A stretch of DNA of 64,000 nucleotides from Planctomycetota bacterium (GTDB lineage: Bacteria; Planctomycetota; GCA-002687715; DRQF01): positions 6,348-70,347 of the forward strand of contig JACKGY010000004.1 in assembly GCA_020639295.1 (NCBI GenBank), given 5' to 3'. Below, piece after piece: positions 7,099 to 42,154 of this stretch; the stretch's first letter is position 1, and each line of letters opens with the position of its first letter. Position numbers and translations under genes: made by a program. The notes under the pieces are model-generated. The model saw only the letters and a list, made by a program, of their open reading frames with translations, was not told the DNA's origin and did not search any database.

Positions 7099-7471
7099 CG
7101 ACTGCATGGCATCGACGAGATCCAGAACGCCAGGCTCGACGACGAGCTGCTGTGCGCGCGCAGGACCTGGGAGCCGGTGGCGTGGGAAGAACCGACGTGA
7201 GAAGTACAACGGTGGGCTCCCGGGTGTGGCCGACCGTGACCTCAATGCGTGGCTCACGGGGCACCGCGATGTCCTGCGCTGGGACGTCATCACCTCGAGA
7301 TTCGTCATCGGGTCGCCGGAATGCGCGGGGAACCGAGATGTGGAGTACGTGTACGGCGTCAGGCCGATTCCTCGGGCAGCAAGCAGCGCTTGGCGAGGCA
7401 GGGCGACCGGAGCGTCAATCAGGGCCAGGCGTCGCCTGAGTATGTCGGTTGGCCGCGATGGTCCCGTGTGA
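7099..7471 (+). pseudogene. Possible frameshifted gene remnant of unknown function
   Basis: High third-position GC and protein-like sequence switch frame at the TGA at 7198-7200. Before it: ..AARLHGIDEIQNARLDDELLCARRTWEPVAWEEPT*. After it, in the next frame: EKYNGGLPGVADRDLNAWLTGHRDVLRWDVITSRFVIGSPECAGNRDVEYVYGVRP. No family recognised. Confidence 0.25.
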
Positions 7472-30278: not shown

Positions 30279-30425
30279 TCGATCCCGACCGGTTCTTGAC
30301 CCGGTCTTCATCGCGAGCGGGGCCGAGTTCGGGCAAAACCGGGCTCGAAACTCGCCCTCGACCGGATGAACGTCTACGATCCCGGCTCGGCCGGGAGGTG
30401 CCCGGTCAGCTTGGGCGGGCGGAAG

Positions 30426-33448
<3,023 letters not shown>

Positions 33449-33452
<4 letters not shown>

Positions 33453-34027
33453 CCGCGACGGCGTCTCCGATCGAGGCCCGCATGCTTGCCGGCGACGACC
33501 TGGCCTTTGCCGAGCTGGCCGACCGACACGGTGGTCGGCTACGGCTGTACATCCGTCAGGTGGCCGGGCGCGCCATCGCCGCCGACAGCGACGAGGAGGA
33601 CCTCTACCAGCTCGTGGTCTTCCGGGCCTGGCAGCTCCGCGAGAGCTTCGTCCCGCGCGGGCCGGGGAGCTTCCACTCCTGGCTCGTCGCCATGGCCCGC
33701 AACGTCATCGGCGATCGGATTCGTTACCTGGCTGGCAAGGGCCGCGACGCCGGTCGTCGGGCCGTCTGCGCGGCGTCGATCGCCTCGGAGATCCCCGCGT
33801 CGATCACCTCCGTCGCCAGTCGAGCCTCGCGCCGCGAAGAGGCCGATCGCCTCGAACGCTTCCTGACCGAACTCGAGGCCGAGCAGCGGACGATCGTGGA
33901 ACTCTACTACCTCGAAGGGCTCTCTCTCGCCCAGGTGGCCGAACGCTGCGCCCGGGCACGTTCGAGCGTCTGGGAGGAGCTGCGTGACATTCTCGCCCGG
34001 ATGCGCGGCAGCCTGGGCGAGTCCTGA
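33449..34027 (+). CDS. ECF-type sigma factor (S3), coupled to K3 (ATGA overlap)
   Basis: In-frame ATG at 33449 within ORF 32924..34027; it overlaps the K3 stop (33450-33452). Reads EDLYQLVVFRAWQLRESF...WLVAMARNVIGDRIRYL...IVELYYLEGLSLAQVAERCARARSSVWEELRDILARM. Paralog of 48417..48998. Confidence 0.85.
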
Positions 34028-35251: not shown

Positions 35252-37759
35252 TCAGTCGGCTTGCCGCCTGAGCTGAACCCGCAGGCGATCCGTGTTCAGG
35301 CTGGCGGCGTCGATCTCGACGCTCTCGTAGCCCTCGAGTTCGATGCGGATGCCGGCGGGCGGTTGGCGGAGGTCGCGCAGGTAGAGGACGCGGCCGTCGT
35401 CATCGCTCACCGGGGTCGGCTGTTCAACCTCGAAACTCTCGCTCGCAAAGCGCATGCGCGGCTGGTCGAGCGTGATCACCTCGGCGTCGGCGAGGGGCTC
35501 TCCGTCCTCGTCGAGGATCCGGATCACCACCAGCTTGCGGCGATTCGCGTCGAAGCGCAGGGTCAGGCGCCGCTGCTCGGTCGCGGTCAGTTCGACGCCG
35601 TCCTGCTCGGCCAGGAGCTGATCGGCGAGGTCGCGGATCTCGATCCGGAAGCGGACGCCGGGGCGCAGGTCCTGGAGCCGGAAGATCCCGTCCGGGCCCG
35701 GACGGGCGATCAGCTCGAAGTGGTCCTCGCTCTCGGAGACGCCGACCGCGGCGCGTGCACCCAGGCCGGTCTGCAGGTCGTAGTCGAAGCCGTCGGGCAT
35801 CAGCGCGCGAGGACCGTGGACGACGAGCTGCTGAGCGGGGAAGTCGGCCGGAGCGCCCTCGAAGACCACCTCAAGCCGGTTGACCGGCGCGAGCACGATT
35901 CGCTGCCGGTTCTCGTCGGCGCGTTCGATCGCGAACCGACGCGCGCCGTGGTCGAGCGCCGTCGCCATCGCCTCGTCGATGCCGGCGCCGAGGCCACGGA
36001 TCTCGCCCTCGCCCTCGGCATCGGTCCTGGCCTGGAGACTGCCACTCGCCACCATCACCACGGCGTTCGCCAGCGGCCGGCCCGCGGGGTCGACCACCAG
36101 GAAGCGCCAGGAGCCGAGCGGGGCCAGGGCGACGTCGCCGAGGTCGACCGTGTCGGCGAAACCCTCGTCGGCGTGCAGGACCTCGATCAGCTCGCCGCCG
36201 CGGGGAACGCTCAGGCGCAGCTCATCGAAGTCCAGGACGTTGCTGCCGATCACGAAGCGGCCGTCGGCGTCGCTGCTCGCCCGCGTCGTCGACCAGGCGA
36301 TCTCGTCGTAGCGACAGTTCAGCACCACGGGCTGCCAGGGGATCGGCGCCAGGGTCGAGGCATCCACGAGCCGGCCGGTGACCCGAGGGACGGCGATGAC
36401 CTCGAGCACGAGATTCTCGGTCGGCGCGGGCAGGCTGCGCCAGCGGCCGAGATGCCGGTCCGGCTCACGGAAGGCGAAGCCCTGGCCCAGTTCGAGGCGA
36501 AGTGCCTGCCCCGGGAGAAGGCCCCGGAATCGGAAGCTCCCGTCTCCGGCCACCTTGGTCAGGCAGGAGTCACGGCGTCGCTCGAGGGGCCAGACCAGGG
36601 CGGCGATCGCGGGCGGCAGCTCCTCGCGGTCGGCGTCGTCCTGCCACAGCCGGAGCTCGAGTTCGCGATAGGGCAGGCCGCCGGCGACGCGCACCTGCCC
36701 CGAGAGGATCGCGCCCTCCTCGAGGTCGAGGCGTCGATGACCGGCGAGCTCGATCTCGCGCCGCCACCAGGGCCGCCCCGGGGCCAGGACGACGACGCTC
36801 GCCCGCCCGGCTCGGCCCGGCCGTCGCAGCCGGCCACGCTCGTCGCTCCGGCCGTCGACCAGCAGGTCCTCGTCCCGGAAGATCAGCACGCGGGCCCCGG
36901 CGATGGCGGCGCCATCCGGATCGCGCAGCTCGAGGACCAGCTCGGCCCGCTCCTCGACCAGGTCCGGCGCGGCTTCGGTCTCCTCGGTCCCGGTGGCCGC
37001 CGCAACCTCGCCGCCGCTCGGACTGCGGCGCGCGGCCGGAGTCGCTGCGGCCTCCTGCCGGTCGCCGCGGTCGAGTTCGGGTCCGTCCTCGTGGGCGAGG
37101 GTGGTGGCCAACCAGGCCACGATGGCCGCAGACAGGGCGACGGCGACGACGATCGATTTCTGACTCATGACGACTCCCGTGAAGCGGGCGGCGAGGCCGC
37201 CGATACCGCCGCCGGTGACGAGAGTTCCGACCTTGGGGGCGCTCAGGGCGAGCGGCAGCAGCACGCTTGCCCAGGACGCGGTGGGCTGATCGCGGTCGAG
37301 CCGTTCGCGCAGCATCGCCAGTCCGCGGCTGAGCTGGGTGCGGACGGTGGCGGCCGGGCGGCCGAGGCGCCGGGCGATGGCGCGCGGTGTCTCGCCGCGG
37401 AGGTAGCGGGCGACGATCAGGCCACGATAGGGTTCGGCGAGTTCGCGCAGGGCCTGCCCCAGGAGGGCATGGCTCTCCAGGATCGCCAGCGCCTCGGCCG
37501 GGTCGTCGGTCACCGCGGTCTCGACGAATTCGGCTTGGTCGGGCCGCCGGCGCCAGGATTCGGCGACCCGTCGGCGCAGGACCGAGCGCAGCCAGGAACG
37601 TTCCTGGCCGCGCCGCGGCGGTTGCCGCAGGGCCGCGAGCCAGACCTCCTGGACCAGGTCGTCGCGATCCGCCGCGTCGCGGACGAGGATCGCGGCAAGC
37701 CGGCCCAGCCAGCCGCCCTGGGCCAGGAGTTCGTCGATGCTCGTCCGTTCACCCGTCAC
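35252..37759 (-). CDS. ECF-sigma-like domain fused to hydrophobic segments and a ~600-aa C-terminal region with carboxypeptidase-regulatory-like repeats
   Basis: Single 835-aa ORF with no in-frame stop. The N-terminus reads DDLVQEVWLAALRQ ... PYRGLIVARYLRGETPRAIARRLGRPAATVRTQLSRGLAMLRERL (sigma regions 2 and 4). Hydrophobic segments WASVLLPLALSA..LVTGGGIGGLAARFTGVV and SIVVAVALSAAIVAWLATTLA follow. Repeated beta-type modules then follow (e.g. LRDPDGAAIAGARVLIF..DGRSDERGRL; VVDPAGRPLANAVVMV..ARTDAEGEGEI). Confidence 0.7.
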   Translation of the reverse strand: MTGERTSIDELLAQGGWLGRLAAILVRDAADRDDLVQEVWLAALRQPPRRGQERSWLRSVLRRRVAESWRRRPDQAEFVETAVTDDPAEALAILESHALLGQALRELAEPYRGLIVARYLRGETPRAIARRLGRPAATVRTQLSRGLAMLRERLDRDQPTASWASVLLPLALSAPKVGTLVTGGGIGGLAARFTGVVMSQKSIVVAVALSAAIVAWLATTLAHEDGPELDRGDRQEAAATPAARRSPSGGEVAAATGTEETEAAPDLVEERAELVLELRDPDGAAIAGARVLIFRDEDLLVDGRSDERGRLRRPGRAGRASVVVLAPGRPWWRREIELAGHRRLDLEEGAILSGQVRVAGGLPYRELELRLWQDDADREELPPAIAALVWPLERRRDSCLTKVAGDGSFRFRGLLPGQALRLELGQGFAFREPDRHLGRWRSLPAPTENLVLEVIAVPRVTGRLVDASTLAPIPWQPVVLNCRYDEIAWSTTRASSDADGRFVIGSNVLDFDELRLSVPRGGELIEVLHADEGFADTVDLGDVALAPLGSWRFLVVDPAGRPLANAVVMVASGSLQARTDAEGEGEIRGLGAGIDEAMATALDHGARRFAIERADENRQRIVLAPVNRLEVVFEGAPADFPAQQLVVHGPRALMPDGFDYDLQTGLGARAAVGVSESEDHFELIARPGPDGIFRLQDLRPGVRFRIEIRDLADQLLAEQDGVELTATEQRRLTLRFDANRRKLVVIRILDEDGEPLADAEVITLDQPRMRFASESFEVEQPTPVSDDDGRVLYLRDLRQPPAGIRIELEGYESVEIDAASLNTDRLRVQLRRQAD

Positions 37760-37936
37760 CGCAGGCCACTCCTCGATGGGAACCGGTCGGATTCTCGCCG
37801 GACGACGACCTCCGTCGCCCGGGCAGCGCCTGCTGGGTCGGCGGTCGTCGACGAACGCTACGAGAAATCCGGGAAACCCGCTCGCCGTGTCCTGGATCTG
37901 ACGAGGTCACCCGGGACCTCCGGGGCCATGCCGGGG

Positions 37937-38377
37937 TCAGGGGGCGGGGTCGAGCCGATGTCGCCAATCGCCGCCCAGGCGGCGAAGGGCCCTCTTCAGG
38001 CGGTCGGGGTCGAGGGGCTTGCACAGGACCTCGACCGCGCCGTGATCCAGTGAGGTCGCGATGTCCCCATCCTGGTCGGACGAGGTCAGGACGATGACCG
38101 GGACCGAGCGCGTGTCGGCGTCGGCCTGGAGCCGATCGAGGACCTCGAAGCCGCTCAGCCCTGGCATGTTGAGGTCGAGCAGGACGAGGGCGGGACGGCC
38201 GCCGATCGGGTTCTCGTCCGGTCTTGCCAACAGGTCGAGACAGGCCCGGCCGTTCGCCGCTTCATGCAGGGGGAGATCGGCGAGGGCGGGGTCACCCTGG
38301 AAGGCCATGCGGATCAGGAGGCGGTCACCGGCGTTGTCGTCCACCAGCAGGATGCTCATCGAGTCGCCGGAGTTCAT
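37937..38377 (-). CDS. Response regulator, receiver domain only
   Basis: 146-aa ORF. ILLVDDNAGDRLL, phospho-acceptor context ALVLLDLNMPGLSG, and VIVLTSS..K-P. The ATG overlaps the upstream kinase stop (ATGA at 38374-38377). Confidence 0.85.
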   Translation of the reverse strand: MNSGDSMSILLVDDNAGDRLLIRMAFQGDPALADLPLHEAANGRACLDLLARPDENPIGGRPALVLLDLNMPGLSGFEVLDRLQADADTRSVPVIVLTSSDQDGDIATSLDHGAVEVLCKPLDPDRLKRALRRLGGDWRHRLDPAP

Positions 38378-39861
38378 GCCTCGATCTCCGTGAGTCGCTC
38401 CCTCCTCCCGGTCTCCTCGCCTCTCGAGCCGTAGCCCTCGGGGCGCGGGAAGACCAGCCTGAAGATCGACCCGCCACCGGGCTGGTCGTCGATCTCGATC
38501 GAACCCCGATGAGCCTCGACGATCTTCAGCACGAGCGCAAGCCCGATCCCGAGGCCGGGATACTCGTCGCGGCCGTGTAGTCGCTGGAAGAGATGGAAGA
38601 TCCTCTCCCGGAACTCGGGCGCGATCCCGATGCCGTTGTCGGCGACCTCCACGATGACGCGGTGGCGCTCATCACGACCACTGACCGTCACCACGGGCGC
38701 CTGGCCCCGGGCCACGTACTTGATCGCGTTGCCGATCAGGTTCTCGAAGACCGATCCGAGCAGGACGCGGTCGCCGCGGATGGTCGGGAGGTCGCCGATC
38801 GTGACCGTGGCCCCGGCGTCTTCGATCGCGAGCTGCAGGTCGGCACGGCTCGAGCGCGCGATCTCGGCCAGGTCGACGCGTTCGACCATGGTGGTCTTGC
38901 GGTCCACGCGAGAGAAGCGGAGCAGTCCCTGGATCATGCCCCTCATCCGCTCGGCGCCATCGAGCGCGAACCGGAAGTAGGTGACCTCGTCCTCGTCGAG
39001 CCGGCCGTCCAGCCGCTCGGCGATGAGGCCCAGGAAGCTCGAGACCATGCGCACCGGTTCCTGGAGGTCGTGGCTGGCGACCGCCGCGAACTGGAGCAGC
39101 TCCTCGTTGGAACGACGCAGTTCACCCTCGATCTCCTTCAGCTCCGAGATGTCGTGGATGATGCCGGTGAACCAGACCTCGCCGTCGACCTCGAAACGGC
39201 CGAGCGACAGCTTGATGGGAAACTCCCGACCCGTGGCGGTCACGGCCCGCAGTTCGCGACTGCCGCCGATCAGGGTCGATGTGCCCTGCTCGAAGTGCCG
39301 CGCCAGGTAGCCGTCGTGCTGCTCGCGGAAGGGCGAGGGCATGAGCATGCTCACGTTCCGGCCCACGAATTCGTCGGCCGGCTGCTCGAAGAGCCCTTCG
39401 ATCGCCGGATTGACGAAGACGATCGTGCCGGCCGAGTCGATCACGACGATGGCATCGGCGGCCGTCTCGACGAAGCCACGGAGGCGGGCGAGAGAGCGTT
39501 CGAGCTCGGCCTTGGTGCTCTTCAACTCGGTCCGGGCCGCGCGCTCCTCGCGCAGCGCGGTCTCGAGGCGCTGACGACGGTCGAGGGCGAGCGTCGTCAG
39601 ACGGCGGAGCCGCGTGCCCATGACCATGCCATGGACGAGGAGCGCGGCGAGAGCGCAGCCGAAGGCCAGGATCACCCAGGGCGAGACCCGGACGACACCG
39701 CCGATTCCCGGGATCAGGAACAGGTAGAAGGTCGTGACCAGGACCAGCACGGCGAGGAAGCCGAGGAATCGCAGGAGGCCGGGCGTCGGTGCCCGAAGCC
39801 GGACCGCGCTCGTGTCGTCGTCGCGCCGGGAGCGCTCGTCCGGTCGAGTGCCCCTGGTCAT
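38374..39861 (-). CDS. PAS-domain sensor histidine kinase
   Basis: 495-aa ORF with two N-terminal TM spans and a PAS-like region (AADAIVVIDSAGTIVFVNPAIEGLF). H-box FAAVASHDLQEPVRMV. N/G boxes NLIGNAIKY, DNGIGI, GLGIGLALV. Confidence 0.9.
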   Translation of the reverse strand: MTRGTRPDERSRRDDDTSAVRLRAPTPGLLRFLGFLAVLVLVTTFYLFLIPGIGGVVRVSPWVILAFGCALAALLVHGMVMGTRLRRLTTLALDRRQRLETALREERAARTELKSTKAELERSLARLRGFVETAADAIVVIDSAGTIVFVNPAIEGLFEQPADEFVGRNVSMLMPSPFREQHDGYLARHFEQGTSTLIGGSRELRAVTATGREFPIKLSLGRFEVDGEVWFTGIIHDISELKEIEGELRRSNEELLQFAAVASHDLQEPVRMVSSFLGLIAERLDGRLDEDEVTYFRFALDGAERMRGMIQGLLRFSRVDRKTTMVERVDLAEIARSSRADLQLAIEDAGATVTIGDLPTIRGDRVLLGSVFENLIGNAIKYVARGQAPVVTVSGRDERHRVIVEVADNGIGIAPEFRERIFHLFQRLHGRDEYPGLGIGLALVLKIVEAHRGSIEIDDQPGGGSIFRLVFPRPEGYGSRGEETGRRERLTEIEA

Positions 39862-40301
39862 GAGGGTGGCAGGAAGCGATCGAGGGCGAGGTCGACGAGG
39901 TGCCGGAGCTCGGCGAAGGTGGCGGGTTTCGCCAGCACGTCACTGGCTCCCGAGGCCTGGAAGCGCTGCCGATCCTCCTCCACGAGGGCACCGGAGAGGA
40001 CGACGCTGGGAACGGCTCCGAGGCGTTCGTTGGTGCGGAGGAAGCTGAGCACGATGTGACCCGAGAGCGGGGGCACGTTGACGTCGACGAAGAGCAAGGC
40101 CGGCAGCGTGGCGTCGGGACTGTTCTCGAGGTCCTGGAGCCGCGCCAGCAGGACGTCCGACCGGGCGAGGATCTCGATCCGGACTTCCGGCCGGGACCGG
40201 CTGATGGCCTCGGAGATGAGGCGAGCATCACCCGGATTGTCGTCGAGCACGATCAACCAGGGTTCCGTCCGGCTTGCCGCCTCGGTCGCGGTCCAGTTCA
40301 T
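39858..40301 (-). CDS. Response regulator, receiver domain only
   Basis: 147-aa ORF. LIVLDDNPGDARL, ALLFVDVNVPPLSG, VVLSGA..AKP. There are 4-nt overlaps with both neighbours. Confidence 0.85.
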   Translation of the reverse strand: MNWTATEAASRTEPWLIVLDDNPGDARLISEAISRSRPEVRIEILARSDVLLARLQDLENSPDATLPALLFVDVNVPPLSGHIVLSFLRTNERLGAVPSVVLSGALVEEDRQRFQASGASDVLAKPATFAELRHLVDLALDRFLPPS

Positions 40302-42154
40302 GAGCGGCTGGGCTCCAGCAAGGGTTGCGGCGAGCCCCAGAGGGGACCCTGCGCGAAGCGGACGCCCGATTCGAGCAGGAACTCGGTTTCCTCCTCCCGT
40401 TCCACGCCTTCGGCGATCACCCGTGCCTCGAGGCTCCGCGCCAGGCGGACGAGACGACGGAGGAAGCGGCGATCGTCGCGACGCTGGCCGAAGTCACCCA
40501 CCAGACGCCGGGTCACCTTGATCACCTGGGGTTCGAGGACCACCAGGGCTTCCAGCGAGCGGGCACCGAAACCGACGTCGTCGAGCGCCAGGATGACTCC
40601 CTCGGCGCGCAACTTGGCGAGCGCCGGGAGCAGGTAGCCCGGGTCGCCCACGAGCTGTTGCTCGCTGATCTCGACGCAGAGTCGTTGCTGGCGGCGGCTC
40701 GCGTGCAGCATGTCGGGAACCCGGGAGTGTTCCAGCGTGACCAGCGATTCCGGATGCAGGTTGACGTGCAGATCGAGCGTGCGCGGCAAGCTGGTCGAGC
40801 GCAGCAGAGCCCGGCGCAGGAGATCGATCTCCATGTGCACCAGCAGGTCGTGGTCGAGGCTCTTGGCATCGCGATCCTGCGGTCTGATCCAGGAACCATC
40901 GCCACCGGAGATCATGAACTCGAGGGCGATGACCTGGCCGGTCTCGAGGCTGACGATCTGCTGTTCGGCCACGCCGAGCCGCGACATCACCATCGACTCG
41001 CCGTCCGAAACCGCGACGGCATCGGTTCCGGTCACGGACGGAGCCGGCGCGGCCTGACCGCTGCTGACCCGGTCCTTGCCGCTCCGCTTGCTGGACGAAA
41101 GCGTGTCCTGGAGCGAGCGCAGCACCTCGTCGAGCGAACGGGTCGCGGCAGCCACCTCGACCAGACCGATGCTGACCGTGGTGCCGATCCGCTCGTCGGT
41201 CCAGTTGAGCTGCTGGGCGGCCACCTCATGCCGCAAGCGCTCGGCCAGGCCGCCACCTTCCGCGATCCTCGTCGCCGGCAGCAGGGCCAGGAACTCGTCA
41301 CCGCCGATTCGGCCCACCAGGTCGGTGGGGCGCAGCGACCGGCGCAAGACGGCCCCGACGCGCGCCAGCACGACGTCGCCGGCCGCGTGGCCGTGGCTCT
41401 CGTTGATCGTCTTGAAGTCGTCGAGGTCGAGAATGAGGGCAAGCAGGGGCTCACCCTGCCGGCGCGCACGCCCCAGTTCGATGCGCAGGCCGAGCTCGAG
41501 GCCACGTCGGTTGAGAACGCCGGTGAGCGGATCCTGGGTGGCCTGGATCTCGAGCTGGGCGAGGGTGCGTTCCAGCGCCTCCGAGGCCGCGTGCTCGACG
41601 GTCAGATCCTCGGCCAGCCCGGCGAGGAAGAGCGGTGCGTCATCACCGCGAACGATGTGGAAGCAGCGTTCGCGGAGCCACTGGACCCGACCCGAGGGAT
41701 GCACGATGCGGAACTCCTGGTCGAAGCTGCCGGGGTCGCTTCGCCAGGCCTCGATGACGCGCGTGCGCTCATCCTCGTGCAGCCAGTCCAGCCGGCCGGC
41801 GGGATCCTGCCCCTTGCCGACCACCTCCGGCCCCCAGATCCCGATGGCGCTGGGATTGGCGTAGACCAGGGTTCGACCCTCGGGATCCGCCAGCCAGAAG
41901 GCGCGGTCGAGATTGGTCATGAGGCCGTTGAAGAGGACCTCGCGTTCCTGAAGCTCGCTCGCCAGCCGCGCGGCGCTCTCCTGGCAGCTGGAAAGCTCGG
42001 CGCCGAGCTGATCGAGCACCGACTGGATCGCGGCGGAATCGAGTGCCTTCTCTCTGGTCAACGGTCGGACCTCTTGCGAACCCTGGATGTCGAAACGCAG
42101 TCGGTGCTTGGGCATCCCTTCCGTGGCGGAGCCTCGGCTCGTCCGGACCGACAC
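40298..42154 (-). CDS. PAS-GGDEF-EAL c-di-GMP signalling protein
   Basis: 618-aa ORF. Intact GGDEF (VGRIGGDEFLALL) with an RxxD I-site five residues upstream (RPTD). C-terminal EAL-type domain (CVEISEQ, ALDDVGFG, IKVTRRLV, VIAEGVE, FAQGPLWG). Alternative start at 42115. Confidence 0.9.
   Translation of the reverse strand: MSVRTSRGSATEGMPKHRLRFDIQGSQEVRPLTREKALDSAAIQSVLDQLGAELSSCQESAARLASELQEREVLFNGLMTNLDRAFWLADPEGRTLVYANPSAIGIWGPEVVGKGQDPAGRLDWLHEDERTRVIEAWRSDPGSFDQEFRIVHPSGRVQWLRERCFHIVRGDDAPLFLAGLAEDLTVEHAASEALERTLAQLEIQATQDPLTGVLNRRGLELGLRIELGRARRQGEPLLALILDLDDFKTINESHGHAAGDVVLARVGAVLRRSLRPTDLVGRIGGDEFLALLPATRIAEGGGLAERLRHEVAAQQLNWTDERIGTTVSIGLVEVAAATRSLDEVLRSLQDTLSSSKRSGKDRVSSGQAAPAPSVTGTDAVAVSDGESMVMSRLGVAEQQIVSLETGQVIALEFMISGGDGSWIRPQDRDAKSLDHDLLVHMEIDLLRRALLRSTSLPRTLDLHVNLHPESLVTLEHSRVPDMLHASRRQQRLCVEISEQQLVGDPGYLLPALAKLRAEGVILALDDVGFGARSLEALVVLEPQVIKVTRRLVGDFGQRRDDRRFLRRLVRLARSLEARVIAEGVEREEETEFLLESGVRFAQGPLWGSPQPLLEPSRS

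What the first reader, a model, noticed from the sequence alone, without database searches (positions are those of the whole stretch)
35252..37759. Single 835-aa ORF joining an ECF-sigma-like domain, hydrophobic segments and a large repeat region
The first ~165 residues read like a complete ECF sigma (region 2 DLVQEVWLAALRQ; region 4 RGETPRAIARRLGRPAATVRTQLSRGLAMLRERL).

Without any stop, the frame continues through two hydrophobic stretches and about 600 residues of carboxypeptidase-regulatory-like beta modules. If it is translated as one chain, this would be a membrane-tethered sigma carrying what is normally the anti-sigma / sensor part in cis, presumably released by proteolysis.

An internal start (VMSQKSIVVAVAL.., ~37170) could instead produce a separate membrane protein from the same frame.
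Basis: partly seen in the sequence, partly recalled or inferred. Interest (0 to 1): 0.6.

Follow-up and report, generated by a model that had tools for sequence, protein, structure and literature searches.

The report
Membrane-tethered sigma factor, probable two-product gene
This is a real gene that joins a transcription (ECF sigma) factor through one membrane helix to an external rod of beta-sandwich domains; it is one member of a large planctomycete family, and a conserved ribosome-binding site plus start codon inside the gene suggests it also makes a second, sigma-less copy of the rod.

Summary
The 835-aa ORF (35252-37759, minus strand) is real and is not an assembly artefact. More than 100 database homologs, four paralogs in this genome and up to 26 copies per related genome share the layout: ECF sigma2/sigma4, a conserved ~45-aa linker, one TM helix, a disordered spacer and beta-sandwich modules. 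The other (160-172) is a conserved short post-sigma4 helix. No anti-sigma domain is present.

Three signals appear at the column of Met198 in 66 family genes:
- A start codon in 43, and GGAG 8 nt upstream in 29.
- The rare Gly codon GGA in 79% at codon -4 (background 10-15%), and GTG-biased Val codons.
- mRNA less structured than synonymous-randomised controls.

The predicted 638-aa short product matches a larger family of stand-alone signal-anchored proteins.

Most likely this is a membrane-tethered sigma released by proteolysis (inferred), co-expressed with a sigma-less rod. It is a new variant of a known kind (planctomycetal ECFs with C-terminal extensions; IutY-like hybrids). No experimental data exist.

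The parts
35252..37759 (-). Full-length ORF, 835 aa: ECF sigma, linker, TM helix, spacer, six beta-sandwich modules (long product)
37769..37774 (-). GAGGAG Shine-Dalgarno, 9 nt upstream of the GTG start codon (37759-37757)
   Evidence: the N-terminus aligns with homologs from about residue 7; the 16S rRNA has the anti-SD tail
37544..37711 (-). Sigma region 2 (residues 17-72)
   Evidence: Pfam PF04542 31.6 bits; family-invariant D34, Q37, W56
37304..37465 (-). Sigma region 4 (residues 99-152)
   Evidence: Pfam PF08281 35.5 bits; invariant R151; PDB sigma matches end at residue 154-155
37244..37282 (-). Conserved post-sigma4 helix (residues 160-172; family motif R..W..AL.PLA)
   Evidence: W163 in 93/111, L167 in 91, P169 in 71 sequences; AF2 helix with pLDDT of about 80; no PDB or Pfam homolog
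37169..37243 (-). Variable Gly/Ala-rich tether (residues 173-197), pLDDT below 50
37174..37177 (-). Internal Shine-Dalgarno GGAG (rare Gly codon GGA followed by G), 5 nt upstream of the internal ATG
37166..37168 (-). Internal ATG (Met198), predicted start of the short product
   Evidence: the column holds a start codon in 43/66 family genes; SD plus start in 35/66 against a 2% background
35252..37168 (-). Predicted nested short product, 638 aa: signal-anchor TM, spacer, beta-sandwich rod
   Evidence: colinear with the stand-alone 636-aa P0129 (33% identity, E 1e-75); most relatives are stand-alone
37094..37153 (-). Single transmembrane helix (residues 203-222), N-in/C-out
   Evidence: KD 2.36; AF2 helix; 93/120 relatives show exactly one strong TM about 40 aa after sigma4; flank charges +2 and -4
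36947..37093 (-). Disordered Ala/Glu/Pro-rich extracytoplasmic spacer (residues 223-271)
   Evidence: pLDDT 35-50; composition
35255..36946 (-). Ectodomain: about six CarboxypepD_reg / transthyretin-like beta-sandwich modules (residues 272-835)
   Evidence: Pfam PF13620 76 bits; AF2; Foldseek
37852..37870 (-). 19-nt element GGATTTCTCGTAGCGTTCG, 92 nt upstream of the start; the only other genomic copy lies upstream of fused-sigma paralog C33
   Evidence: 2 hits in 4.66 Mb, both upstream of fused sigma genes; function unknown

Best explanation
The gene encodes a single-pass, N-in/C-out membrane protein.

Shown:
- A complete ECF sigma factor (residues 1-157) sits in the cytoplasm.
- It is tied by a conserved 13-residue helix and a flexible Gly/Ala tether to one TM helix.
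- A disordered spacer and a rod of about six beta-sandwich modules follow on the outside.
- There is no anti-sigma domain.

Strongly indicated by comparative DNA evidence: an in-frame ribosome-binding site (GGAG) and ATG just before the TM helix form a live second initiation site. The same ORF would then also yield a 638-aa sigma-less, signal-anchored rod, identical to the outer part of the long form and equivalent to a widespread stand-alone protein family.

Inferred: tethering to the membrane, perhaps helped by the post-sigma4 helix, keeps the sigma inactive. Regulated proteolysis frees it (ectodomain trimming followed by an RseP-type site-2 cut) when something happens to the rod. The long form would thus act as a sigma-tagged reporter among untagged rods.
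For: Fusion is real and family-wide:
- 116 long homologs have Sigma70_r2, r4_2 and CarboxypepD_reg.
- There are 4 long paralogs in this genome and up to 26 copies per related genome, almost all in 800-1400-aa open frames.
- The G007 ortholog is a single 829-aa ORF.

The layout is constant and the linker motif is conserved.

Internal start, at the column of Met198 in 66 family genes:
- ATG 31, GTG 11, TTG 1.
- SD plus start in 30 (35 within +-2 codons), against a mean of 2% and a maximum of 13% at other columns.
- Gly at codon -4 is GGA in 33/42, against 15.5% overall and 10-12% before a G. Counting all Gly codons in the seven upstream codons (49 of 82 GGA), Fisher p = 1e-17.
- GGAG lies 8 nt upstream of the start in 29 genes.
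- Val at the column is GTG in 11/16, against 34% background (p = 0.006).
- mRNA around the site is less structured than synonymous-randomised controls, but only in the genes that have the site (z = +0.91, p = 3.5e-5). Four control positions give z <= 0. This gene's own window has z = +1.96.
- The 16S rRNA has the anti-SD tail.

The fusions are old, so a neutral scar should have decayed:
- Sigma-region identity has a median of 38% and a maximum of 68%.
- The nearest fused/stand-alone sister pairs have branches of at least 0.6 substitutions per site.
- The site is scattered over the sigma tree and found in 8 of 12 genomes.

The short product equals an independent family.

An RseP-like M50 protease is encoded in the genome.
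Against: - There is no protein, ribosome-profiling or transcript evidence.
- About 47% of family genes lack the SD-start, including the G007 ortholog, so the second product is dispensable.
- Fused and stand-alone states changed at least 13 times on the ectodomain tree, so repeated capture of stand-alone genes with their own SD-ATG could renew a scar.
- Family genes are treated as independent in the statistics, although they are paralogs.
- Proteolytic release, the inhibitory role of the post-sigma4 helix and the signal sensed are inferences.
- No family-wide promoter was found.
Confidence: 0.6

Rival explanations
1. There is a single product only. The gene makes just the full-length tethered sigma, and the in-frame GGAG-ATG is a non-functional scar of the gene fusion: a sigma module that lost its stop and read into the 5' UTR, SD and ATG of a stand-alone rod gene. 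This is the capture model of Pinto and da Fonseca (2020).
For: - The ectodomain family is mostly stand-alone, and the fused state changes at least 13 times on its tree.
- Stand-alone relatives carry GGAG 8-10 nt before their own start.
- The junction (variable tether) lies right upstream of the SD.
- The literature reports incongruent sigma and extension trees in Planctomycetes (PMC7671368).
- Half of the family and the G007 ortholog lack the site.
Against: - All fusions in view are old (sigma identity at most 68%; sister fused/stand-alone branches at least 0.6 substitutions per site). Despite this, the rare synonymous GGA codon is kept in 79%, Val codons are GTG-biased and local mRNA structure is relaxed by synonymous choice. 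A neutral scar should have drifted to GGC (background about 50-60%).
- The sigma-plus-linker part is homologous and of constant length in all members, which is not expected from many independent insertions.
Confidence: 0.25
2. The sigma works while tethered. It is never released and recruits RNA polymerase to promoters at the membrane (like the ToxR/CadC-type membrane-bound regulators), with the ectodomain modulating activity allosterically or by clustering.
For: - No anti-sigma domain or obvious cleavage motif is present.
- A ~25-residue flexible tether lies between the sigma and the membrane.
- Planctomycetes have heavily invaginated membranes (general knowledge; PMC8567305 abstract).
Against: - No precedent exists for a sigma factor acting while membrane-bound.
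- Known fused sigma/anti-sigma hybrids (IutY) are activated by Prc/RseP proteolysis (PMC8999054).
- The genome has an RseP-like protease.
- Not directly tested here.
Confidence: 0.12
3. Artefact: two separate genes (sigma, and a membrane protein) are joined by a sequencing or assembly error that removed a stop or shifted a frame.
For: - The genome is a MAG-like draft (36 contigs, 88.6% complete).
- The G004 ortholog does show a frame change.
Against: - More than 100 independent assemblies carry the same uninterrupted fusion.
- The frame change in G004, and the out-of-frame-looking tails in P0120-P0122, lie after the TM helix, never between the sigma and the TM.
- No stand-alone sigma with this linker followed by a separate rod gene was found.
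Confidence: 0.02

Closest known systems
Planctomycetal ECF sigma factors with large C-terminal extensions (Jogler 2012 ECF01-Gob, later ECF57; Pinto and da Fonseca 2020, PMC7671368; Casas-Pastor 2021, PMC7826278)
   Same: - Same phylum.
- ECF core followed by a long, highly variable C-terminal extension.
- Several copies per genome: 5.3 ECF57 copies per planctomycetal genome are reported, and there are 5-6 long fusions here.
- Extension and sigma trees are incongruent.
   Different: - The features reported for ECF57 (WD40-like repeats; two conserved Cys linking sigma2 and sigma4; PMC8999054) are absent. There is no Cys in residues 1-200, and the extension is TM plus CarboxypepD_reg modules.
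- Group assignment with ECF Hub models could not be run.
- In the papers and text I could search here I found no description of the conserved post-sigma4 motif or of an internal start site.
IutY of Pseudomonas putida (ECF243 sigma/anti-sigma hybrid), the only experimentally characterised fused membrane-bound ECF (PMC8999054)
   Same: One polypeptide with an N-terminal ECF sigma, a single TM helix and a periplasmic domain. IutY is activated by Prc plus RseP proteolysis, which is the mechanism inferred here.
   Different: - IutY carries a FecR-type anti-sigma domain between sigma4 and the TM helix, and works with a TonB-dependent receptor.
- Here the gap is about 45 aa with no anti-sigma domain.
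- The ectodomain is a beta-sandwich rod and there is no receptor gene nearby.
- No nested second product is known for IutY.
ECF52 / ECF48 / ECF53 of Actinobacteria (e.g. SCO4117; PMC5826349)
   Same: Sigma, TM helix, Pro-rich spacer and extracytoplasmic binding domain in one chain. Proteolytic activation has been proposed.
   Different: - These groups have a zinc-finger (ZAS-like) anti-sigma segment before the TM helix and a carbohydrate-binding domain.
- Here there is no Cys/His motif.
- The phylum and the ectodomain differ.
Stand-alone signal-anchored CarboxypepD_reg rod proteins (uncharacterised; e.g. P0129, P0131, P0143)
   Same: Colinear homologs of residues 198-835: an N-terminal M-(K/R)-TM, a Pro/Ala-rich spacer and beta-sandwich modules. 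P0129 is 636 aa against the predicted 638-aa short product.
   Different: - They have no sigma part and no sigma gene adjacent in the four contexts inspected.
- Some occur as tandem arrays.
Bacterial genes with in-frame internal initiation giving two isoforms (textbook examples from my own knowledge: CheA long/short, IF2 alpha/beta, ClpB)
   Same: An in-frame SD plus start inside an ORF yields an N-terminally truncated second protein that shares the C-terminal domains.
   Different: Here the truncation removes a whole sigma factor and leaves a signal-anchored exported protein. No precedent turned up in a literature search for sigma fusions.

Membership tests
ECF (group 4) sigma-70 family | Sigma region 2 and region 4 present; regions 1 and 3 absent | tested here: met
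   PF04542 at 17-72 and PF08281 at 99-150, with no r3 or r1 hits. TIGR02937 scores 56.8 bits against a cut-off of 42.9. PDB matches to RpoE, SigL, SigH and SigK.
ECF (group 4) sigma-70 family | Binds core RNA polymerase and directs promoter-specific transcription | not testable with these tools
   Only family-wide conservation of core sigma2/sigma4 residues is available.
Sigma/anti-sigma hybrid of the IutY type (ECF243) | Anti-sigma domain (FecR-like, about 80-90 aa) between sigma4 and the TM helix | tested here: not met
   The gap is 45 aa here (family median 40, 10th-90th percentile 30-50). There is no FecR, RskA or zf-HC2 hit at E <= 1.
Sigma/anti-sigma hybrid of the IutY type (ECF243) | Single TM helix with an extracytoplasmic sensor domain | tested here: met
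   One TM helix at 203-222, N-in/C-out. The ectodomain is of a different fold family.
Sigma/anti-sigma hybrid of the IutY type (ECF243) | Activation by site-1 (Prc) and site-2 (RseP) proteolysis | not testable with these tools
   An RseP-like M50 protease is encoded (C23:942379-944148). Cleavage was not tested.
ECF52/48/53 (Actinobacteria) | Zinc-finger (ZAS-like) segment after sigma4 | tested here: not met
   There are no Cys residues in 1-200 and no zf-HC2 hit.
ECF57 (formerly ECF01-Gob) | Planctomycetal ECF with a long C-terminal extension, several copies per genome | tested here: met
   literature
ECF57 (formerly ECF01-Gob) | Two conserved Cys proposed to link sigma2 and sigma4; WD40-like repeats in the extension (as described in PMC8999054) | tested here: not met
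   There is no Cys in the sigma part and no Cys-majority column in the family alignment. The extension is CarboxypepD_reg, with no WD40 hit.
ECF57 (formerly ECF01-Gob) | Assignment by ECF Hub group HMM | not testable with these tools
   The models are not available here. The group descriptions (supplement of PMC7826278; Jogler 2012; Wiegand 2020) are not held.
Gene with functional in-frame internal translation start | Start codon with a correctly spaced Shine-Dalgarno, conserved beyond protein-level constraint | tested here: met
   GGAG-N5-ATG in this gene. In the family: 43/66 start codons, GGAG-N8 in 29, GGA codon 79% against 10-15%, GTG bias. Anti-SD present in the 16S rRNA.
Gene with functional in-frame internal translation start | Reduced mRNA structure around the start | tested here: met
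   z = +0.91, p = 3.5e-5 in the members that have the site. Absent in members without the site and at 4 control positions. This gene's own window has z = +1.96.
Gene with functional in-frame internal translation start | Second protein product detected | not testable with these tools
   No proteomic or ribosome-profiling data exist.
Stand-alone signal-anchored CarboxypepD_reg rod family | Colinear homology of TM, spacer and beta modules over the full length | tested here: met
   P0129: 33% identity over residues 71-638 against 77-636, E 1e-75. On the ectodomain tree, 89 of 114 relatives are stand-alone.

The most novel reading that the evidence does not exclude
The locus is a self-reporting, dual-coding module. 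Most ribosomes start at the internal SD-ATG and make an untagged, membrane-anchored beta-sandwich rod, which is the real structural or binding output. A minority start at the upstream GTG and make the same rod carrying a sigma factor on its cytoplasmic end. When rods are damaged, engaged or degraded, the tagged copies are processed by intramembrane proteolysis and the freed sigma adjusts transcription (of its own gene or a surface regulon). Because the internal start is always present, loss or gain of the sigma module converts a gene between reporter and plain rod. That would explain the many fused/stand-alone switches and the radiation to about 25 copies per genome.
Probability: 0.3. Interest if true: 0.8.

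Novelty: new variant of a known kind. Interest (0 to 1): 0.6.

Why it matters
[quoted passage not shown] This family may number in the thousands in Planctomycetota, going by earlier unchecked notes from this scan, and no member has been studied experimentally.

If confirmed, it would show two things:
- A sigma factor can be controlled by bare membrane tethering, without any anti-sigma domain.
- A sigma fusion gene can be dual-coding, with a nested sigma-less product that equals an independent protein family.

That would give a concrete, testable model for how one-polypeptide transmembrane sigma sensors arise, work and revert. It would also give a simple experimental handle: one synonymous GGA-to-GGC change should remove the second product.

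Tried and rejected
1. Two-TM topology. Rejected: the first hydrophobic stretch scores KD 1.39, is a 13-residue helix with Pro and Lys, and would place the beta modules in the cytoplasm.
2. Two-gene relatives. The search for stand-alone sigma-plus-linker relatives gave only 10 short hits. Those on long contigs run into out-of-frame-looking Arg/Pro-rich sequence after the TM helix and look like frameshifted fusions.
3. The search for related loci with alignment A2 failed because no stretch was conserved enough.
4. The first AF2 submission was too large and was re-run with 73 sequences. Model coordinates are not exposed, so contacts of helix 160-172 could not be measured.
5. Family promoter. K-mer and dyad searches on upstream regions gave nothing above shuffles. 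The sigma70-type promoter and terminator scan found nothing.
6. tblastn of the ectodomain against the own genome found no paralogous ectodomain.
7. SD-like motif as a translational pause site rather than a start. Considered unlikely, because a start codon co-occurs at fixed 8-nt spacing and Val codons are biased to GTG.
8. SD peaks caused by protein constraint. Real elsewhere (Q37-E38 gives CAGGAG), but excluded at this site by synonymous codon bias.
9. ECF group assignment was not possible. The supplements and two key papers are not held.
Full report
OBSERVATION. It is 835 aa and starts with GTG preceded by GAGGAG-N9. The window is about 70% GC, so long antisense frames are common; a 930-aa plus-strand ORF overlaps this one. 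The minus-strand frame is the real gene. Pfam finds Sigma70_r2 (17-72), Sigma70_r4_2 (99-150) and CarboxypepD_reg (two stretches, best 555-622). The general ECF model TIGR02937 scores above its cut-off.

Hydropathy shows a single TM-grade segment (203-221, KD 2.36).

STRUCTURE. An AlphaFold2 model built on 73 homologs (mean pLDDT 80) gives these parts:
- A confident sigma domain (1-157).
- A short helix at 160-172 (pLDDT about 80).
- A low-confidence Gly/Ala tether (180-202).
- The TM helix (203-222).
- A disordered Ala/Glu/Pro spacer (222-267).
- About six beta-sandwich modules (272-835).

Foldseek matches the ectodomain to pilin shafts, adhesin extender repeats and macroglobulin MG domains, and to no enzyme. 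Flank charges (+2 on the N-terminal side of the TM helix, -4 on the C-terminal side) fit an N-in/C-out orientation.

ONE ORF OR TWO IN RELATIVES. A search restricted to long proteins returned 116 homologs of 700-1450 aa with the same sigma plus CarboxypepD_reg architecture. All named ones come from Planctomycetota MAGs. The window's own genome (4.66 Mb) has four further long paralogs. It has about 45 ECF-type sigma4 hits in all, six of them in 880-1200-aa frames. Among 30 related genomes, 16 carry family members, up to 26 per genome, almost all as uninterrupted 800-1400-aa frames.

There are two true orthologs:
- G007 has a single 829-aa ORF.
- G004 has a frame change near residue 250, after the TM helix.

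A search for short (stand-alone) relatives of the sigma-plus-linker part found only ten. Those on long contigs (P0120-P0122) still carry sigma, linker and TM in one chain, then run into Arg/Pro-rich sequence that looks out of frame. A CarboxypepD_reg ORF follows P0122. The fusion is genuine.

ANATOMY OF THE JUNCTION. Across 120 family members, 93 show exactly one strong TM segment, starting about 40 residues (10th-90th percentile 30-50) after the end of sigma4. That is too short for a class I anti-sigma domain (about 80-90 aa, established knowledge). No anti-sigma family (FecR, RskA, zf-HC2) is detected even at E <= 1. There is no Cys in residues 1-200. PDB sigma matches (RpoE, SigL, SigH, SigK) all stop at residue 154-155.

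The linker is nevertheless not a bland tether. A motif R160..W163..A-L167.P169-L-A is conserved (W in 93/111, L in 91, P in 71). It is followed by a variable Gly/Ala/Ser/Pro stretch, a conserved Gly, then [L-A-M-K-x-K] and the TM helix.

THE INTERNAL START. Met198 is conserved in 67 of about 104 aligned proteins (Val 17, Leu 11). In this gene it is preceded by GGAG-N5. I fetched DNA for 60 family genes from 11 related genomes, and added this gene, its 4 paralogs and the 2 orthologs. I mapped the codons onto an HMM of the N-terminal 260 residues and scanned every column.

At the Met198 column:
- 31 of 66 genes have ATG, 11 GTG and 1 TTG.
- 37 have an SD-like 4-mer 4-11 nt upstream, and 30 have both. 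No other column exceeds 6.
- Allowing +-2 codons, 35 of 66 have SD plus start, against a mean of 2% and a maximum of 13% elsewhere.

SD-like peaks can arise from protein constraint; the invariant Q37-E38 gives CAGGAG. So I tested synonymous choice:
- The Gly at codon -4 is GGA in 33 of 42 cases. GGA is 15.5% of Gly codons elsewhere in these genes, 11.5% when the next base is G, and about 10% genome-wide.
- Counting all Gly codons in the seven upstream codons (49 of 82 GGA), Fisher p = 1e-17.
- This places GGAG exactly 8 nt from the start in 29 genes.
- Where the column is Val, the codon is GTG in 11 of 16, against 34% background (p = 0.006).

A third, independent signal concerns mRNA structure. 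51-nt windows centred on the site fold less stably than versions with synonymous codons randomised (mean z = +0.57, p = 4e-4).
- The effect is confined to the 35 genes with SD plus start (z = +0.91, p = 3.5e-5). It is still +0.63 (p = 0.003) with codons -5 to 0 held fixed.
- It is absent in the 31 genes without the site.
- It is absent or reversed at four control columns.
- This gene's own 131-nt window is less structured than 197 of 200 shuffles.

The organism's 16S rRNA ends in the canonical anti-SD. Together these are the standard signatures of a working initiation region.

WHAT THE SHORT PRODUCT WOULD BE. Residues 198-835 (638 aa) begin MSQK followed by the TM helix, which is a signal-anchor N-terminus. 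A full HMMER scan of 1.84 billion representatives found 246 relatives. On a tree of the 114 with good coverage, 89 are stand-alone proteins of about 800 aa whose own N-terminus is the TM helix, and 25 are sigma-fused. One of the 89, P0128, appears to be the ectodomain piece of the frameshifted G004 fused ortholog and is therefore mislabelled.

The closest true stand-alone relative, P0129, is 636 aa and colinear to the C-terminus (33% identity, E 1e-75). It has no sigma gene nearby. Others also lack adjacent sigma genes or form tandem arrays. The nested product therefore corresponds to an independent, functional protein family.

SCAR OR LIVE SITE. The fused state changes at least 13 times on the ectodomain tree, with at least 5 changes forced by strongly supported branches. 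Pinto and da Fonseca (PMC7671368) proposed that planctomycetal ECF extensions arise when duplicated sigma cores capture downstream sequence. The SD-ATG could therefore be a fusion scar.

Several points count against a passive scar:
- Every fusion in view is old. Sigma-region identity has a median of 38% and a maximum of 68%. Terminal branches are about 0.67 substitutions per site. The nearest fused/stand-alone sisters are at least 0.6 substitutions per site apart on each branch.
- The site is scattered over the sigma tree and found in 8 of 12 genomes.
- A rare synonymous codon is kept in 79%.

I therefore favour a selected, live start (about 65%). The scar reading stays at about 25%. About half the family, including the G007 ortholog, lacks the site, so it is dispensable.

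MECHANISM. Shown: the architecture, the topology and the family-wide conservation of the sigma core, the linker motif and the internal initiation signals.

Inferred: the sigma is inactive while tethered and is freed by regulated proteolysis. This is the mechanism demonstrated for the fused hybrid IutY (Prc plus RseP) and proposed for ECF48/52/53 (PMC8999054). The genome encodes an RseP-like M50 protease in a 929-aa frame, plus three smaller M50 proteins. The role of the conserved helix 160-172 is open: auto-inhibition, protease recognition or membrane-interface binding. I could not inspect model contacts. A tethered-but-active sigma is a minority rival.

CONTEXT. Upstream on the same strand lies a four-gene operon (PAS-GGDEF-EAL, response regulator, PAS histidine kinase, response regulator) ending 177 nt before the GTG. 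The G004 ortholog is likewise directly preceded by a histidine kinase and an RR-GGDEF gene. The G007 ortholog is not. No sigma70-type promoter or intrinsic terminator was detected around the gene. A 19-nt element 92 nt upstream occurs only twice in the genome, the other copy being upstream of fused-sigma paralog C33. A family-wide promoter dyad was not found.

COMPARISON WITH KNOWN SYSTEMS. The gene works most like IutY and the actinobacterial ECF52 group: a one-polypeptide membrane-spanning sigma. It fails their defining feature, an anti-sigma domain or zinc finger before the TM helix.

It fits the broad description of planctomycetal ECFs with long C-terminal extensions (ECF57, formerly ECF01-Gob). 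It lacks the Cys pair and WD40-like repeats reported for ECF57. The ECF Hub assignment could not be run, and the key papers and supplements are not held.

No literature precedent for a nested internal start in a sigma fusion turned up. Earlier unchecked notes from this scan had flagged the same family and, in two other genomes, a suspected internal SD-ATG. I read them only after my own tests, and they are not counted as evidence.

VERDICT. It carries a well-supported and easily testable extra feature, the second in-frame start. Novelty: new variant of a known kind. Interest: 0.6.

Noticed in passing
window 37852-37870 (minus strand); G000:C33 near 210312: The 19-nt element GGATTTCTCG.AGCG.TCG occurs exactly twice in the 4.66-Mb genome. 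Both copies lie upstream of fused sigma genes: 92 nt before this gene's GTG and 35 nt before paralog C33's ATG. It could be a shared operator or promoter. Its spacing does not fit a classical ECF -35/-10 pair.
   Followed up: partly
window 37937-42154 (minus strand); L023 3628-6535: A PAS-GGDEF-EAL / RR / PAS-HK / RR operon lies directly upstream on the same strand. The G004 ortholog of the fused sigma is also directly preceded by an ETR1_N histidine kinase and an RR-GGDEF gene, whereas the G007 ortholog is not. A regulatory link between c-di-GMP or two-component signalling and this sigma is possible.
   Followed up: partly
window 30366-34027 (plus strand): A Ser/Thr kinase fused to an FGE-sulfatase domain (1028 aa) is followed by a separate ECF sigma (about 33486-34027), convergent with the fused sigma gene. 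A similar kinase plus ECF pair sits next to a fused-sigma relative in L009.
   Followed up: no
I did not re-examine it.
   Followed up: no
L087 3001-8445: Three consecutive stand-alone paralogs of about 815-820 aa from the TM-plus-beta-sandwich rod family lie in tandem in a metagenome contig, downstream of an MCP-signal gene and a PD40/Tricorn-like gene.
   Followed up: no
L023 about 7414-7466 (G004:C18): The closest ortholog (49% identity in the sigma part, 39% in the ectodomain) changes reading frame in the low-complexity spacer just after the TM helix. This could be an assembly indel or a real split. It retains GGAG-N5-ATG before the TM helix.
   Followed up: partly
P0120, P0121, P0122 (L009, L010): Database proteins of 276-327 aa annotated as plain sigma factors carry sigma, linker and TM helix and then run into out-of-frame-looking Arg/Pro-rich tails. 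They are probably frameshifted members of this fused family, and the annotations are misleading.
   Followed up: partly
window 37761-37795 and G000:C31 about 596907: This gene and paralog C31b share GAAT(C/T)C...ACCGGTTCC 15-40 nt before their start codons.
   Followed up: no
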